DNA of 64,000 nucleotides from Nitrospirota bacterium (GTDB taxonomy: Bacteria > Nitrospirota > Thermodesulfovibrionia > Thermodesulfovibrionales > Dissulfurispiraceae). The stretch spans positions 1-64,000 of the forward strand of contig JBFLWF010000004.1 of NCBI GenBank assembly GCA_040758355.1, written 5' to 3'. The position numbers are program-made. Below, in pieces: positions 27,001 through 54,000 of the stretch (the stretch's first letter is position 1; every line of letters begins with the position of its first letter).

Positions 27001-30000
27001 TTGGAGAAGGCAATAACCTTGAACTTGCTGCCTTCAGGACATCAGATGGTTTAATTCCCGATTTCCATGTCAACTCAACTACGGAGGCATGTTCTACATT
27101 GAGAGACGGACTGCCTTATTTAGCCTGTAGGGGAACAAGCTGCAGTGCGTCCATCTGTCCAAACCGCAAGACCCCTGATAATGCCGACATATCCCACGCC
27201 TGCATCCCAATGATAACAGGCAACGATATTCACGGTGTTTTGTCCCTGACATATCAACCGGAAAGGGTTTTGCCGCGGGATAAGTTAAACGTGCTCCTTT
27301 CAATAGCAAACCAGGTATCCATGGCAATCCAGAGGTATAACCTTTTCGAAAAGCTCAGGAAAGAGAAGTCCGAGATTGAGAGGACTTACAGCGAAATAGC
27401 CACCCTCAATGAAATGCTTACAAAGAAGATAGAGGAGCTGAAAGACACCCAGAACAGGCTTATCCAGTCGGAAAAGCTTGCTGCCACAGGGGAGCTTACG
27501 GCCGGTCTGTGCCATGAGATCAACAATCCAATAAGCATAATCCTGAACCGGATTGAGTGTCTTGAAATGGAAGCAAAGGAGCTTCTTTTGCCTGAGAGCG
27601 TGCTGAAAGACCTCGATGTTATATCTTCATATGCTGCAAAGGTTTCATCCATAGTTCAGGACCTCCTTATCTTCTCAAGGCATCATCCGGTAGAATTCGG
27701 ACATATAAATATAAAAGCAATTATTGAAACGGTTGCAGGGATGCTCCATGACGACCTGGACAGAAATGGATGCATCGCGCACATGGATATTCCGCATTCC
27801 GTCCCGGATATTTATGGAGATGCAGACAGATTGGAGCAGGTGTTCAGGAATCTGATAGCAAATGCAATCGATGCCATGCCTGATGGAGGGAATATCTATA
27901 TAGATGCCCGAATCCCCTCTGAAAGACCTGATTTCCTTTTAGTCAGGATAAAGGACGAGGGAGAGGGGATAGCAGAAGAAAATCTGCACAGGATATTCGA
28001 CCCCTTCTTTACAACTAAAAAATTGGGTAAGGGTTCGGGTCTCGGGCTGTCCATCTGTTATGGAATAATAAAGAATCACGGCGGCGATATCACTGTAAAG
28101 AGTGTCCTGAATAGCGGCACTATTTTCAGCGTGTATCTGCCTTTAAGACAGGGAATGGGTGCTGGGTGTGAATAAAGGAAGGATTCTGGTTATAGAAGAT
28201 GACGAGGAGATGCTTGAAAACTATTCAAGGCTCCTTAAAAGGATGGATTATGAGTGCATCATGGAAAAGGACAGTGTAAAGGCCGCAGAAGAGTTGAGCC
28301 GGCTTTCGCCCGATGTTATTCTCACTGACCTCAGAATGCCCGGCAAAAGCGGTTTTGACATCCTCAGTGCTTCAAAGGAACTCAATCCCGACATGCCTGT
28401 AATTTTAATAACCGCCTATGCAAACATCTCAACCGCTGTAGAGGCTGTAAAACAGGGGGCCTTTGATTTCATTGCCAAACCATTCACATCGGAACAGCTC
28501 AGGATAGCCATTGAAAGGGCAATGAGGCAGAAGACCCTTACCGATGAGAACAAGCAGCTTAAGGAGCAACTAAAGGCATCTTCCATGATAGACGAAATTA
28601 TTGGCAAGAGTCCTGCAATTCAGGAAGTCATCGAGGTCATAAAACGGGTGTCACAGACAGATGCAAATATCCTGATAACAGGCGAAAGTGGAACAGGGAA
28701 GGAACTGGTTGCAAAGGCAATCCATGCAAGGAGCCTTAGAAAGCCGGAGCCCTTTATCCCTGTTGATTGCGCAGCGCTTCCGGAGAATCTCCTCGAAAGT
28801 GAATTGTTCGGATATGAGAAAGGCGCCTTTACGGGTGCAAACACAAGCAAGCCCGGTCTCTTCGAGACTGCGCATGGAGGCACACTGTTCCTTGATGAGA
28901 TCGGCGAGATTCCGATGACAATGCAGGCAAAACTCCTGAGGGCAATCCAGGAGCGGCAGGTGAGGCGGCTCGGCAGTAACAAGTTCATATCCATAGATGT
29001 CAGGATAATATCGGCAACGAACAGGGAAATTAAAAAAAGCGTACAGGAGAAAACATTCAGGGAGGACCTTTATTATCGTCTCAATGTCATCCAGATAAGC
29101 GTTCCTCCTCTTAGAGAGAGAAGGGGTGATATCCCTGTTCTTGCATTACATTTTATGGATAGATTTGCTGCACTGAATAAGAAAGACATAAGAAGTATTT
29201 CTCCCGATGCAATGGGGGTAATGGAAAACTATTCGTGGCCAGGCAATGTGAGGGAGCTTCAAAATATCATGGAAAGGGCAGTTGTTTTGTGCGATGCGGA
29301 TAAAATAACTATAGAGGATTTGCCAAAAGAGGTGTGTATGGCGCCGCCTCCCCTCCCTGTAGAAAACCTGCTGTATAAGGACGCTAAAGAGGCGTGGCTT
29401 GCTGCATTCGAAAAGAATTACCTCTCAAGCCTTCTGAAAGGCACATCAGGCAACATATCGCGGGCAGCGCAAAAGGCAGGAATCGACAGAAAAACAATTC
29501 ACCGGCTTATTAAGAGGTATAAGCTGAACGCTGAGACTTAAATGTCTCAGTGGGGAAATTCTGCGCCACTCCAAAACAATTACTCTCCTTCCTTATAATT
29601 CTTAATAACTCTTAAATTTTTGAAATGCTGCCTGTATTGTCTGGGGCATTTATGTCTCAATGCACATCCATGAGGAAGTAAATTTAGTGTAAGATACTTG
29701 TTTTTCTTGCTGTTTTTCAATAAGGCACGATATTTGCTTATTACCCCCTCCTGAGTTCAAAAATACCCTGTAACTTAAGTTACAGAAATAAACAAATGTT
29801 TTCATAAATAATGATTTGTTTAGGATTCACATTCGTAAAAATTAACAACAAATTTACAACGATAACGGTTATTATTTAAAAAAATAATAGAAGTATTTAA
29901 AAAACGGGGGAATGCATTAATGCCAAAACAGACCTTTCATGTAGTAATTCCAGACTATAAATACTGGCGGCAGAATATCAAGTGCCAGACAGGATGTCCT

Positions 30001-51000: not shown

Positions 51001-54000
51001 CTGTGCCGTCTAAATTCATGCCTTTGCCGTTTTTGCTCTCCATATTCTTTTCCCTTGTCCTCACAATGGTAGGGAGCATCTATTCTGCGTGGAGGGCAGC
51101 CACTGTTCCACCTGCCGAGGCATTGAGATGAGTTTTATTCGGTGCGAAGGCGTATGGAAGATCTACAACGAGGCCAAGCCCTATGAGGTCAGGGCACTCG
51201 AGGATGCGAGTTTGGACATCGAGAAGGGTTCTTTTGCCATTTTCACAGGGCCATCAGGTTCCGGCAAGACAACCCTTATAAGCATAATAGGCTGCATTGA
51301 CAGACAGACAAGGGGAAGGGTATATATAGATGGAAAGGACCTGACCGATTTATCGGACATCGCACTTTCTTCATTAAGACGGAAAAGGATAGGTTTTGTA
51401 TTCCAGAACTTCAATCTCATACAGGGGCTTCCTGCATGGGAGAATGTATCCATGCCACTCATACCGATGGGAATGAAGGAGAATGATAGAAAACACACAG
51501 CAATTGAACTCCTGAAAAAAGTGGGATTGTCAGAGAGGTCTGAGCATTCGCCTGAAGAGATGAGCGGAGGAGAACAGCAGAGGGTTGCCATTGCAAGGGC
51601 ACTGGTCAACAATCCTGACATAATCATCCTCGATGAGCCTACATCGAATATAGATATCGATGCCGCATGTCTACTGATAGATATCCTTTCGGATTTAAAG
51701 CGGGAAGGCAAAACAATTCTCATGGCATCCCATGACGAAGGCATGCTGAAAATTGCCGATATAATCCATGAACTGAAACGCGGCCGTTTAGTAAAATGAT
51801 ACTCAACGCTTTCACCATAATAATGCTCTTTATTGCAGTCCTCACAGGCGTCCTCGCCATCCCCCTCGGCATCCTCTCCTTTAAGGTTTATCAGAAATGG
51901 GGCAATGTCCTTTATGACGAGGAAAAGACCGCTATTATAAACAGGTCTTATCTCCTCGGTCTCATGGCCACTGTAATACTCTTTGTAAGGCTCCTTTCGT
52001 GGCCTTTGTTTTATGTGGCACTCCAGAGCTATGTTCCTGATGTCCACGGCGCAATGTGCATCTTTGGTGTTACAAGGCTCCAGCCAAATTTAACGGGGAT
52101 TGTCCAGGTATTAAAGCCCCTTGTATTTTTCTCGATTGGGGCATGGCTCCTCCTGAACCGCCTTGACAGGGCGACTGAGACCTCTCCGCTCTTCAGGAGG
52201 AAATTCCTCTTTCTTTCCATTGTGAGCGTTATGATAATCATGGACAGCACAGGAGACCTGATATACCTTACGGGATTTGATGTAAAGACATTTGTTTCTT
52301 GCTGCACTACCTACTTTGATCTGCCGGAAAGGCCTACAGCCGTGATTACAGAGTCATTATTGGGTGAAGGTTATGACCGCTATATGCTTCCCCTGTATTA
52401 TCTATCCGGCGCTTTATTCATTGCCGTGCAGTTTATCTCGTACCACCGCATGAGGAAAGGCTTTTCACATTCTATTAAGATCGGAATAATCGGCTTCGTC
52501 ATAGCTGTGATAAACGCAGTGATTACCGTTCTATCCATGTTTGAGGTTATTGCCCCTGAGATTATGAATATGCCTTTGCATCACTGCATCTATTGCATGT
52601 GGCAATATTCACCGCATTCCATTCTGATGACAACTCTATTTATTATTGGCACATTCTCGCCTGGATGGTCCCTTATCCTCAATGTAACAGGAAGGGACAA
52701 AGAGACAACGGCAGTTCTTGAAAGTTACCTTAAGAATCTCAATATACTCGGCATCGCAGGAATAGGCGCATCAGTATTAATGGCTACAGTGCATTTAGTC
52801 TGATTAAGGGACACACAATCCACATTTCGGGGCAATGATGTCCCATTTATCAGAGATGCATACCGTAATCTATAACCTATAGCCTTGTTTTTCAACGGCT
52901 TTTTTATGGCATCTATTTTGCAACGATATTGCATCGATGCCCTAAAACTGCAACTTCAAGTTGACATCCAACAGGGAGGTTTATAAAATTAAATAATGAG
53001 GCTGATTTCAGTAATAATTCTGATCGCCCTGAGCCTGTCGGTGATACCGCAGACGGTTGTTATACACCCATATGCCGGCACAGAGACGTCTATTTCGGTG
53101 CTTAATGTCTGCAACGGCTCCGGCACAGGCGTTCTGAGCAGCCTTGATATGCCATTTGTTAATGAATGTCCGTGCAAGCTTGTTCCATCGAGCTTTGCCG
53201 GTTTCCACGATATTCCAAATCCCATATTTAATCGATTCTTGGTAGCCTTTCAAAAAGAGCGCCCCCCTAAAGTCTAATCTGTAGTTCCGAAGTTGCGAGT
53301 TGCTTTCATCTTACAGGCATTTCTGTGTCTGTATTTCGGATTGTCCATTAGGACATTCCTCCCCGTTTGACTCGGCTCCACTTCGGGAATCAACGCAAGA
53401 TCATAATCAAAAATTTCTGAAGTGGAGTCTTTTTTTAAGATTTATCAGGAGGGTTTATAATGGAAACAAACAATGAAGATGTAAATATGGGTTCGCTTTT
53501 AATTGAAACAGGTACAACAATTGCTTCTTTAATCCTGTTTCCGGTTCTGGCTCAGAGCTTGAAAATTCCCCCTGCACTTGTGCATGCTTTAAGAGTGATA
53601 AAAGCGAGAAGAAATGAATTAAGGGTTGAAACTACGAAATAAAAATAAAGCAGATTTTAGCGGGTTGACAGAGAAGAGAAACTGTAAACTTAGATGCGAT
53701 CTCTGTCAGCTTGAGATAGAAGGGAAGCCGTTTGTTTTACATACAAAAGAAGGGGATAGATATTTCTGCTGTAAGGGCTGTATAGGAGTGTATGAAATTC
53801 TGCACTGGAATGAACTATCAAAATAAGGCAGACGTCAGGAGGTGATGGATATGGCTTCAAGGTTTAGATTCATAATACCGAGGGTAGCCCACTGTAGCGA
53901 GGGTTGCCATAGATAGTCCCGGGCATGACTTTAAACTGCCTGTTAGGAGCTTCTGGATAGCATGTGCCACCTGTAGCTTAAGACAGGAAGTTTTACGGGA

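What a model noticed while it worked through the whole genome (the two positions that open the first line are those of the whole stretch)
29920..51799. A species-specific clade I nosZ cluster with split NosR, a NosR(C-half)-NosD fusion, its own Rieske/cytochrome b module [...]
A 22-kb same-strand cluster (g00547-g00568) encodes a Tat-dependent clade I N2O reductase (g00553, 49% to Bradyrhizobium/Pseudomonas NosZ) with a mixed accessory set: NosR is cut into an FMN-binding half (g00554, aligns to NosR 63-391) and, 3 nt after its TAA, a membrane/Fe-S half fused to NosD in one 754-aa protein (g00555); nosFY, two NosL; upstream a Rieske protein, a 518-aa cytochrome b, three c-type cytochromes and a GltD-like flavoprotein; and a Sco1/SenC chaperone fused to an OS_HP2/DUF1573 domain with an in-frame TGA (g00559: LIPAUKACTSA). 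The four other genomes of the genus lack the nos families.
Evidence so far: Rows of g00545-g00569; split and frame; read-through of g00559 matches NF041425 OS_HP2 (seleno)protein over model 2-94, 73.6 bits, below its cut-off of 100. Look-up tables: nos_propeller families in 0 of 4 genus, 1-2 of 67 family, 23-28 of 316 order genomes, floors. No orthologue of the Sco-OS_HP2 protein in five family genomes.
(Added by a program. Inside this text positions count along the whole contig: contig position 1 is position 1 of the stretch shown here. "Call 12" and the like, gene names such as g00115 and contig names such as C1 are that model's own, and its searches are not shown. The text may have been shortened before it was handed on; [...] marks where a part breaks off. 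The agent that wrote the report below was given it as the finding of a first reader that could run no searches.)

Follow-up and report, generated by a model that had tools for sequence, protein, structure and literature searches.

The report
N2O-respiration island with B12-linked switch
A complete gene set for breathing the greenhouse gas nitrous oxide, in a rearranged form shared by a whole group of anaerobic subsurface bacteria, sits directly behind a vitamin-B12-protein signalling cassette that probably switches it on, which offers a testable candidate for how bacteria detect nitrous oxide.

Summary
The cluster is real as described, but it is not species-specific and the NosR split is no error. 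NosR relatives occur in 31 of 317 genomes of the order; the split holds in 22 of 22 loci read, three with other genes between the halves. The NosR-C/NosD joint is NosD's own signal peptide, with a signal-peptidase-I site in 61 of 61 fusions, so NosD is probably cut free: a polyprotein, not a tether. The in-frame TGA is selenocysteine (20 of 20 copies, conserved hairpin, Sec genes present). The GltD-Rieske-cytochrome b-hexahaem block is an anammox-like module that serves other reductases too. Tat NosZ in this class is published. New here, just upstream of the finding: a corrinoid protein, MtaA-like protein, DUF1638, RACo, GAF kinase and sigma54 activator, plus palindromic sites about 80 bp before sigma54 promoters of the nos operon, a copper-ATPase operon and a TonB operon. 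N2O oxidises Co(I) corrinoids, so this is a candidate N2O sensor (about 0.3). No activity, cleavage or sensing is shown.

The parts
21976..22683 (+). Crp/Fnr-family regulator (235 aa), upstream of the cassette
   Evidence: PF00027, PF13545; a relative follows the response regulator in G087, G088, G089, G094
22776..23432 (+). MtaC-like corrinoid (B12-binding) protein with DxHxxG
   Evidence: PF02310, PF02607; motif
23444..24460 (+). MtaA/UroD-fold protein without an HxC zinc motif
   Evidence: PF01208; no HxC in the sequence
24468..25082 (+). DUF1638 protein
   Evidence: PF07796
25046..26776 (+). RACo/RamA-type corrinoid reductive activator
   Evidence: PF00111, PF17651, PF14574
26724..28175 (+). 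Soluble GAF histidine kinase; GAF has conserved H115, C123, C145, H158, C160
   Evidence: Pfam; no strong hydrophobic segment, 15-16 of 16 orthologues keep these residues
28159..29541 (+). sigma54-dependent response regulator (receiver, AAA+, Fis HTH)
   Evidence: PF00072, PF00158, PF02954
29532..29549 (.). Palindromic activator site 1 (TGnGnC-N6-GnCnCA)
   Evidence: second-best site of the genome
29642..29659 (.). Palindromic activator site 2
   Evidence: best site of the genome
29722..29739 (+). sigma54 (-24/-12) promoter-like site of the nos operon, 80 bp after site 2
   Evidence: GG-N10-GC
29920..31755 (+). GltD/NfnA-like FAD, NAD(P), Fe-S protein with a C-terminal 2x[4Fe-4S] domain
   Evidence: directly before the Rieske gene in 16 of 16 further loci
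31748..32224 (+). Tat Rieske protein with Ser and Tyr of high-potential Rieskes
   Evidence: PF00355; best solved match 9RK4; HGSRY in the sequence
32245..33801 (+). Cytochrome b (b6 plus subunit-IV-like part fused); four haem His, extra His50, no haem-cN Cys, APWY motif
33851..35266 (+). Membrane-anchored hexahaem cytochrome c
   Evidence: 6 CxxCH
35286..36059 (+). Dihaem cytochrome c, belongs to the Rieske module
36219..37004 (+). Dihaem cytochrome c, directly before clade I nosZ in every intact locus read; likely electron donor to NosZ
37037..38899 (+). Clade I (Tat) N2O reductase NosZ, seven CuZ His motifs and CuA motif present
39019..40098 (+). NosR-N: exported FMN-binding half, flavinylation motif at residues 141-147, no C-terminal anchor
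40102..41019 (+). NosR-C part of the 754-aa ORF: five predicted membrane helices, two CX3CP, two Fe-S motifs
41020..41127 (+). Internal signal peptide of NosD (basic run, hydrophobic stretch, small residues at -3 and -1)
   Evidence: low model confidence at 256-337
41128..42366 (+). Mature NosD beta-helix with H528-x-M530...M552
42335..44090 (+). nosF and nosY
   Evidence: Pfam; position after nosD in all clade I loci read
44087..44890 (+). Exported protein with carboxypeptidase-regulatory-like domain (paralogue at 47289-48092); conserved in the cassette
44880..45788 (+). Sco-like CxxxC domain fused to a DUF1573/OS_HP2 domain with UxxC (Sec at 45594-45596)
45614..45632 (+). SECIS-like hairpin, 7-bp stem, AGUUC loop, loop starts 24 nt after the UGA
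45785..47287 (+). Transglutaminase-like Tat protein and AhpC/TSA-fold protein, conserved in the cassette
48166..49937 (+). NosL (lipoprotein type), two small proteins, second NosL-like protein
   Evidence: PF05573 twice
49965..52803 (+).
52828..52923 (+). Activator site and, 78 bp on, a sigma54 promoter-like site before the operon holding a copper P-type ATPase (54998-57460)
58749..58844 (+). Activator site and, 78 bp on, a sigma54 promoter-like site before a TonB-receptor operon (59438-61525)

Best explanation
This is the Thermodesulfovibrionales form of a clade I N2O-respiration island, under its own two-component control. (1) NosZ is exported by Tat and loaded with copper by NosL and NosDFY (family knowledge; ligands shown in sequence). 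(2) NosR is made as two proteins: an exported, ApbE-flavinylated FMN protein and a membrane Fe-S protein (split shown; export and flavinylation inferred). (3) NosR-C and NosD are translated as one chain, and signal peptidase I releases normal periplasmic NosD (site shown; cleavage inferred, about 0.8). (4) A Rieske/cytochrome b complex oxidises quinol and passes electrons through the hexahaem and dihaem cytochromes to NosZ; by analogy with the anammox proposal the second electron goes to NAD(P)+ through the GltD-like subunit (genes and linkage shown; flow inferred, bifurcation to NAD(P)+ about 0.4). (5) A Sec-containing exported redox protein assists, probably in keeping thiols or copper reduced (Sec about 0.93; role inferred). 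(6) The kinase and sigma54 activator upstream switch on the nos, copper-ATPase and TonB operons through the palindromic sites (about 0.8), and the kinase probably reads the redox state of the co-encoded corrinoid protein (about 0.5); N2O is the most likely trigger but not the only one (about 0.3). The genome has DsrA, NrfA, Nap-like and NorCB-like genes and no NirK or NirS match, so it would be an N2O sink rather than a full denitrifier.
For: NosZ model score and ligands. Split in 22 of 22 loci with TAA, TAG and TGA stops; a cytochrome c gene (G087) or about 8 kb (G126, G127) between the halves. 60 near-full-length fusion clusters among the 81 best hits; -1 residue A/G/S and -3 residue A/V/T/I/S/L in 61 of 61, linker 30-98 aa; 9 of 31 order genomes keep NosD separate and the fused state changes at least 3 times on the NosR-C tree. 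ApbE in the genome. TGA in 20 of 20 domain copies from 15 loci; codons +7 to +10 fixed in 18, 18, 18, 19 of 20 while flanking codons vary; 134 of 140 stem cells pair against 47-67 when slid; tRNA-Sec, selA, selB; the genome's formate dehydrogenase UGA has a similar hairpin. GltD-Rieske-cytb order in 16 of 16 further loci; best Rieske match is the Kuenenia structure; His50 in 117 of 118 and R250/R252/K253 in 117-118 of 118. [quoted passage not shown] Palindrome in 12 of 17 kinase-positive upstream regions against 2 of 22 others; sigma54 pattern 11 of 17 against 0 of 22. Two further sites in the window have sigma54 patterns 78 bp on (chance about 0.04 per 200 bp). N2O reacts with Co(I) (PMC10960958, passages).
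Against: No biochemical or expression evidence for any step. Kin are not independent: 7 of the 15 kinase genomes are one family. 17 of 29 NosZ genomes have no kinase orthologue, so it is not required. In G074 and G075 the cassette and its promoter precede the Rieske module with a DMSO-family reductase and no NosZ was found; G010 also lacks a NosZ match. The kinase GAF has its own conserved Cys/His set and could sense directly. DUF1638 and RACo are missing from most cassette copies. The palindrome pattern was first drawn from the window's two sites, so their top ranks are partly circular. The SECIS hairpin is not the minimum-energy fold of the 57-nt stretch (z -0.09), only the centroid, and no Cys-for-Sec homologue was among the 20. 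One intact NosR (P0082) nests inside the split clade. The cytochrome b lacks the haem-cN Cys of the anammox complexes.
Confidence: 0.7

Rival explanations
1. The NosR-C/NosD chain is not cleaved: NosD stays tethered, so NosR-C is held in a fixed complex with NosDFY and feeds electrons for copper reduction or CuZ activation during assembly.
For: The fusion is kept in 18 of 31 order genomes and 60 protein clusters down to about 46% identity; 13 further proteins fuse whole NosR to NosD; NosR and NosDFY were found in one supercomplex in clade I (PMC13685413, passages).
Against: Cleavage-site residues in 61 of 61 fusions, as in 11 of 11 free NosDs; linker length varies from 30 to 98 aa; fused and free states alternate on the tree. 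The NosD beta-helix begins within three residues of the hydrophobic stretch, leaving no spacer.
Confidence: 0.2
2. The cassette is a general low-redox or oxidant sensor (nitrate, nitrite, NO, O2 or N2O all oxidise Co(I) or a Cys/His metal site in the GAF) that turns on whatever high-potential reductase lies behind it.
For: In G074 and G075 it controls the Rieske module with a type-II DMSO-family reductase and no NosZ; conserved GAF Cys/His; earlier unchecked AI notes find the same cassette before many outputs.
Against: 12 of 15 orthologue genomes carry NosZ, and the cassette stays with nosZ across clade I and II and with or without the Rieske module. In this genome no top-ranked site lies at the nap, nar-like or nor loci on C10 and C11.
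Confidence: 0.4
3. The corrinoid genes are an ordinary methyltransferase or a B12-repair module that protects the cell from N2O, and only happen to share the operon with the regulator.
For: N2O inactivates cobalamin (bioRxiv 10.1101/2024.02.09.579283, passages); RamA-like and DUF1638 proteins reactivate B12 in Phaeobacter (PMC5764234, passages).
Against: No substrate-specific methyltransferase in the cassette and no HxC motif in the MtaA-like protein; the two genes always kept are the corrinoid protein and the MtaA-like protein, tight against the kinase, while the repair genes are usually absent.
Confidence: 0.25
4. The GltD-like subunit runs the other way: it oxidises NAD(P)H and feeds the quinone pool or cytochrome b, making a short NAD(P)H-to-N2O chain.
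For: GltD/NfnA-type proteins are reversible (family knowledge); N2O is a very strong acceptor; no cN haem site.
Against: Ser and Tyr mark a high-potential Rieske, the feature used to argue for NAD(P)+ reduction in Kuenenia (PMC12954380, section 3.3 and passages).
Confidence: 0.3
5. The split or the TGA is a sequencing error or recent decay.
For: One order genome (G247) has a further-broken NosR-N, a truncated NosD and no NosZ; G088 and G136 have stops inside the match.
Against: 22 of 22 loci split; 20 of 20 TGA; an independent groundwater contig runs across both places with its listed indels elsewhere (12 of 22 indel rows shown).
Confidence: 0.02

Closest known systems
Clade I nosRZDFYL(X) clusters of Pseudomonas stutzeri, Paracoccus, Bradyrhizobium
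   Same: Tat NosZ with CuZ and CuA ligands, NosR domains and motifs, NosD H-M-M site, nosFY, NosL, ApbE in the genome.
   Different: NosR is two genes and lies after nosZ; NosR-C is fused to NosD through its signal peptide; dihaem cytochromes, a Rieske module, a selenoprotein and a sigma54 two-component system are added.
Tat-type NosZ of Thermodesulfovibrionia (Mosley et al. 2024, PMC11033732; passages read, Fig. S3 and Table S9 not read)
   Same: Reports Tat NosZ as prevalent in the class and as a subclade of clade I.
   Different: The main text has no mention of nosR (0 hits) and does not describe the accessory architecture or regulation.
NapH-like flavinylation systems with a separate FMN-binding gene (Meheust et al. 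2021, PMC8238504; passages read, supplements not read)
   Same: 539 of 2465 NapH-like clusters encode the FMN domain on a second gene, so a two-gene NosR-like layout is a known kind.
   Different: No NosD fusion or Nitrospirota case in the main text; its Supplementary file 1 may list such clusters.
Anammox Rieske/cytochrome b complexes with NAD(P) oxidoreductase, Kuste4569-74 and Kustd1480-85 (PMC12954380; section 3.3 and passages read)
   Same: NAD(P) oxidoreductase, Ser/Tyr Rieske, b6-like cytochrome b with an extra N-terminal His, hexahaem cytochrome c.
   Different: Cytochrome b and subunit IV are one chain, no haem-cN Cys, no HAO-like protein; the partner reductase is NosZ or a DMSO-family enzyme. 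I had no Kuenenia cytochrome b sequence to align.
[quoted passage not shown] 2017; seen only as a cited title)
   Same: Rieske/cytochrome b and c-type cytochromes feed NosZ.
   Different: Clade I enzyme with NosR halves; no NosG/H in the cluster; the complex carries a flavoprotein.
Bradyrhizobium japonicum fbcH cytochrome b/c1 precursor (recalled; one search found no paper with fbcH)
   Same: A membrane protein and an exported protein made as one chain and cut at an internal signal sequence.
   Different: Different proteins; cleavage was shown there and is only predicted here.
MtaABC-type corrinoid methyltransferases with RamA/RACo activators
   Same: Corrinoid protein, MtaA-fold protein, activator, DUF1638.
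   Different: No substrate-specific first methyltransferase, no HxC motif, coupled to a kinase and sigma54 activator.

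Membership tests
Clade I NosZ | Twin-arginine signal and TIGR04244 above cut-off, above the Sec-type model | tested here: met
   815.7 vs 625; TIGR04246 482.4; TIGR01409 hit
Clade I NosZ | Seven CuZ His and the CuA His/Cys/Cys/His/Met set | tested here: met
   aligned to solved NosZ; motifs located
Clade I NosZ | N2O reduction | not testable with these tools
   needs culture or enzyme
NosR/NirI | Flavinylation motif, two CX3CP, two Fe-S motifs | tested here: met
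NosR/NirI | One polypeptide joining FMN and membrane/Fe-S domains | tested here: not met
   two ORFs, 241 and 265 bits against a cut-off of 1000; split in 22 of 22 loci
NosD | TIGR04247 above cut-off, beta-helix fold, H-x-M...M site | tested here: met
   372.4 vs 300; H528, M530, M552 invariant in 45 rows and aligned to H207/M209/M231 of 7O0Y (their role as copper site is recalled); fold match 7o0y_A
NosD | Cleavable export signal at the start of the domain | tested here: met
   present but internal; 61 of 61; no signal-peptide predictor was available
Anammox-type Rieske/cyt b with NAD(P) oxidoreductase | Co-encoded NAD(P) oxidoreductase, multihaem cytochrome c, Ser/Tyr Rieske | tested here: met
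Anammox-type Rieske/cyt b with NAD(P) oxidoreductase | His pair for the extra haem at the dimer interface | tested here: inconclusive
   His50 in 117 of 118, basic residues 202-203 positions later against 204-205 in Kuenenia; no direct alignment
Anammox-type Rieske/cyt b with NAD(P) oxidoreductase | Haem cN Cys; separate subunit IV | tested here: not met
   Thr66 in 117 of 118 where b6 has Cys; one 518-aa chain
Bacterial selenoprotein | Conserved in-frame UGA, downstream hairpin, tRNA-Sec/selA/selB | tested here: met
   selD not searched
Bacterial selenoprotein | Homologues with Cys at the UGA | tested here: inconclusive
   none among 20 copies; no wider search run
OS_HP2 (NF041425) | Score above 100 bits | tested here: not met
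   73.6 bits; PF07610 DUF1573 76.3 vs 26.1 is met
Sco1/SenC copper chaperone | CxxxC | tested here: met
   C64-C68; best solved matches are Sco proteins
Sco1/SenC copper chaperone | Third copper ligand His about 85-90 residues after CxxxC (position recalled) | tested here: not met
   no His between residues 93 and 217
MtaABC-type methyltransferase system | Corrinoid protein with DxHxxG | tested here: met
MtaABC-type methyltransferase system | Substrate-specific first methyltransferase; HxC zinc motif in the MtaA partner (motif recalled) | tested here: not met
   none in 18000-29541; no HxC
sigma54 two-component regulon | Activator gene, upstream palindromes, GG-N10-GC promoter | tested here: met
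   rpoN itself not searched

The most novel reading that the evidence does not exclude
The cassette at 22776-29541 is a dedicated N2O sensor. A corrinoid protein held in the Co(I) state is oxidised by N2O; the MtaA-like partner and the GAF kinase read the change; the sigma54 activator then induces N2O reductase, its copper supply and an electron-bifurcating Rieske/cytochrome b complex that lets a sulfate reducer make NAD(P)H from quinol using N2O as the pull. This would turn the known toxicity of N2O to B12 into a signal and name a ligand for a widespread orphan corrinoid-kinase cassette.
Probability: 0.3. Interest if true: 0.9.

Novelty: new variant of a known kind. Interest (0 to 1): 0.62.

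Why it matters
NosZ is the only known biological sink for N2O. How cells detect N2O is unsettled: a 2024 study still calls for work to establish 'the presence of an N2O-sensing mechanism' (PMC11539149, passage). This locus gives a sensor candidate with a chemical rationale, a named kinase and activator, and three promoters to assay, all portable into a laboratory reporter strain. The natural two-gene NosR shows that the flavin and membrane halves can work apart, which bears on whether NosR is an electron carrier or an activator. The cluster also marks an overlooked N2O sink among subsurface sulfate reducers that lack NirK and NirS, and annotation pipelines label the fusion simply NosD, hiding the NosR half.

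Tried and rejected
Complex prediction of the cytochrome b dimer (36-345) with the GltD C-terminal part (445-611) and haems: no verdict, score 0.07 against a mark of 0.32; not evidence either way. Sequencing runs: no RNA holder listed. Minimum-energy folding of the SECIS stretch was uninformative. The profile-free search with the kinase GAF region returned mostly multi-GAF proteins without context. The metagenome scan with the kinase gave 69 loci, only 5 with full-length close orthologues; 2 of these reach nosZ, the other 3 are too short. A genome scan for further UGA codons with the same five-base loop found only this gene. PF18764 found nothing in G010, G074, G075, G292 and G324, but nothing rang in the controls and G324's nosZ spans an assembly gap, so that call does not show absence. 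The careful tree did not finish; the quick tree was used. Paper searches: NosR+NosD+fusion+Nitrospirae 0 papers; nos cluster+Rieske+NosR 12 papers, three opened, none on this layout; N2O sensor+corrinoid+nosZ+kinase, N2O+sensing+sigma-54 and DUF1638+corrinoid+nitrous oxide listed no paper proposing a corrinoid N2O sensor, judged from listings and abstracts; fbcH not found. Subscription reviews (Hein and Simon 2019) were not available and may cover the split NosR. Rejected: sequencing error, species-specific origin, a CRP box (the palindrome is two bases longer than the recalled CRP site and tracks the kinase, not the Crp gene).

Full report
Observation. NosZ (37037-38899) passes the Tat-type model TIGR04244 (815.7, cut-off 625) and fails the Sec-type and clade III models; aligned to solved enzymes it keeps the seven CuZ histidines and the CuA motif. 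The ORF 39019-40098 matches the first half of the NosR model; three bases after its TAA a 754-aa ORF matches the second half and then NosD. Against a Pseudomonas NosR the halves cover residues 69-394 and 414-707. Names on the closest proteins and records are Nitrospirota, mostly Thermodesulfovibrionales, so I place the genome there by inference.

Not species-specific, not an error. The fusion protein finds 60 clusters of 700-830 aa among its 81 best hits, 13 proteins over 1000 aa that join whole NosR to NosD, and 6 free NosDs. In the order, 31 of 317 genomes match: 18 with an unbroken fusion (one cut by a contig end), 9 with NosR-C and NosD as separate genes, 4 broken or partial. NosZ is in 29 of 317, none of the 4 congeners, 2 of 67 family members. 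I read 22 loci (20 genome stretches, L002, L004): NosR-N ends in a stop before NosR-C in all 22, with all three stop codons; G087 has a cytochrome c gene between the halves and G126 and G127 about 8 kb. G059 and G265 pair the split NosR with a clade II NosZ (G059 scanned, G265 judged by likeness and score). One intact NosR, P0082, nests in the split clade. G040, of another genus, has the same order at a median 92% identity over 25 proteins, against 77% and 87% for two housekeeping proteins: a hint of transfer between genera, on two markers only. Mosley et al. 2024 (PMC11033732, passages) already report Tat NosZ as prevalent in Thermodesulfovibrionia; nosR is not mentioned in their main text. 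Meheust et al. 2021 (PMC8238504, passages) count 539 NapH-like clusters with a separate FMN gene. Neither paper's supplements were read; they may list these clusters.

The joint. After the last Fe-S cysteine come about five basic residues, a linker, a hydrophobic stretch and then NosD. With the column fixed by the mature NosD strand, residue -1 is A, G or S and residue -3 is A, V, T, I, S or L in 61 of 61 fusions, as in the 11 free NosDs for -1; the distance from the last Cys-Pro varies from 30 to 98 residues. The model is confident for the membrane part and the beta-helix but not for 256-337, and the beta-helix starts at once after the site. On a quick NosR-C tree (102 rows, none dropped) the fused state needs 8 changes, at least 3 forced by well-supported branches. 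A dispensable, variable joint that keeps its cleavage rule is best read as a polyprotein cut by signal peptidase I; the Bradyrhizobium fbcH precedent is recalled, not found. NosR-N has an N-terminal signal, the flavinylation motif in all full-length copies read and no C-terminal anchor; ApbE is on another contig. An earlier AI note (e1-3999361) reached the same reading; it is not independent support.

Selenocysteine. The DUF1573/OS_HP2 domain has TGA at this position in 20 of 20 copies from 15 loci, fused to the Sco-like domain in 4, to the neighbouring exported protein or standing alone in the rest. Codons +7 to +10 are fixed in 18, 18, 18 and 19 of 20 although Ser and Ala have many codons and the flanks vary. 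They form a 7-bp stem: 134 of 140 cells pair, 47-67 when slid, changes are mostly wobble, one is compensatory. tRNA-Sec, selA and selB are present and the formate dehydrogenase UGA is followed by a similar hairpin. Against: the hairpin is the centroid, not the minimum-energy fold, and no Cys homologue was seen. The Sco-like domain has CxxxC but no His in 93-217, so a thiol-redox role is likelier than classic copper chaperoning.

The Rieske module. The cytochrome b is in 25 of 317 genomes, 17 with NosZ and 8 without. In 16 of 16 further loci the GltD-like gene lies directly before the Rieske and cytochrome b genes; in 6 a type-II DMSO-family reductase is inserted before the hexahaem gene (2 scanned), in 2 divergent copies a NapA-like protein follows (1 scanned). 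The Rieske's best solved match is the Kuenenia protein 9RK4 and it has the Ser and Tyr linked to high potential. Hauser et al. 2025 (PMC12954380, section 3.3 and passages) model anammox complexes with an NAD(P) oxidoreductase and an extra haem held by two N-terminal His; here His50 is kept in 117 of 118 relatives, but there is no haem-cN Cys. So it works like those complexes in layout, is not a full member, and is a mobile partner of high-potential reductases rather than a nos-only part. Earlier AI notes record the same module in many phyla.

Directly upstream lie a Crp/Fnr gene, a corrinoid protein, an MtaA-fold protein, DUF1638, a RACo activator, a soluble GAF kinase and a sigma54 activator. 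Close kinase orthologues are in 15 of 317 genomes (a sixteenth weak match left out); 12 have NosZ. G324, outside the order, has the window's whole layout. The cassette sits by clade II nosZ in G059 and G091 and by clade I nosZ without the Rieske module in G312 and two metagenome contigs. Exceptions: G074 and G075, where it precedes the Rieske module with a DMSO-family reductase, and G010; and 17 of 29 NosZ genomes lack it. Between the activator and the first operon gene are two palindromes and a GG-N10-GC site. The palindrome occurs in 12 of 17 kinase-positive upstream regions and 2 of 22 others (about 0.3 expected in each set), the sigma54 pattern in 11 of 17 and 0 of 22; four of the five misses have near-matches. 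A matrix built without this genome and its two closest relatives ranks 29642, 29532, 58749 and a site at contig position 70002 first to fourth in 2.77 Mb and 52828 seventh; the first two ranks are partly circular because the search pattern came from them. The sites at 29642, 52828 and 58749 each have a sigma54 pattern 80, 78 and 78 bp on; the one at 70002 has none. The two new operons hold a copper P-type ATPase and a TonB receptor, which fits a copper enzyme. N2O reacts with Co(I) cobamides (PMC10960958, passages). Earlier unchecked AI notes describe the cassette as a widespread orphan sensor without a ligand; none links it to nos. The kinase GAF keeps its own Cys/His set, so direct sensing remains open.

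Host. DsrA, NrfA, Nap-like, type-II DMSO-family and NorCB-like genes are present (the NorCB call rests on the COX1 match and the neighbouring dihaem gene); NirK and NirS were not found in a 99% complete genome. Relatives of the stretch occur in groundwater and subsurface runs.

Verdict. Real, lineage-wide, a new variant of clade I nos systems. The split, the cleavable fusion and the Sec are well supported by conservation; the electron paths and the sensing are inferred. The most valuable lead is the corrinoid-kinase cassette with its three promoters. Interest 0.62.

Noticed in passing
G059:C1 (L056, L057) and G265:C26 (L068, L069): Clade II (Sec) nosZ clusters that carry the split NosR in the order nosD, nosR-N, nosR-C; NosR is said to be absent from clade II clusters.
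   Followed up: partly
L039:1897-6434 (G314) and 11 other nos loci: A four-gene block inside the nos cluster: a 580-aa cytochrome bd subunit I-like membrane protein, two monohaem cytochromes and a dihaem protein with an ethylbenzene-dehydrogenase-gamma domain. Absent from the window; mostly present where the Rieske module is not adjacent. Possibly an alternative quinol dehydrogenase for NosZ.
   Followed up: partly
P0069-P0081: Thirteen unnamed proteins of 1001-1148 aa join whole NosR to NosD, again through a signal-peptide-like joint; 12 form a sister group to the split clade, one is separate.
   Followed up: partly
window 25046-52803 against G040:C33: Island proteins are a median 92% identical between two genera whose S1 and DapB are 77% and 87% identical: possible recent transfer.
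   Followed up: partly
window 52996-53277 and 58935-59252: Two small paralogous exported-looking proteins with a CxC motif head the two extra sigma54 operons; no NCBIfam match at 1e-12.
   Followed up: no
window 59438-64000 and L243:1-4305: TonB receptor, 344-aa membrane protein, NapH-like protein and, by appearance only, a dehydratase/activator-like pair, under the same promoter type; substrate unknown.
   Followed up: no
second copies in G087, G096, G098, L004: Tandem DUF1573 domains give proteins with two in-frame UGA codons; in these extra copies the motif is UxxA instead of UxxC.
   Followed up: no
window 48984-49424: 146-aa exported protein with many Cys pairs, no Pfam or NCBIfam match, found only here and in G040 among the loci read; possible metal store.
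   Followed up: no
window 12543-20901: Genes that look like a group 4 hydrogenase-type membrane complex, just upstream of the island; judged from the translations only.
   Followed up: no
G247:C12 (L066, L067): Decayed nos remnant: NosR-N in two pieces, NosD truncated, no nosZ found.
   Followed up: partly
L117:16784-18076 (G142): An ExtKL-type multihaem (seleno)protein and a NosL-like gene lie just upstream of the GltD-Rieske module.
   Followed up: no
G000:C2:65790-66437 (L080): A second, short b6-type cytochrome b elsewhere in the genome.
   Followed up: no
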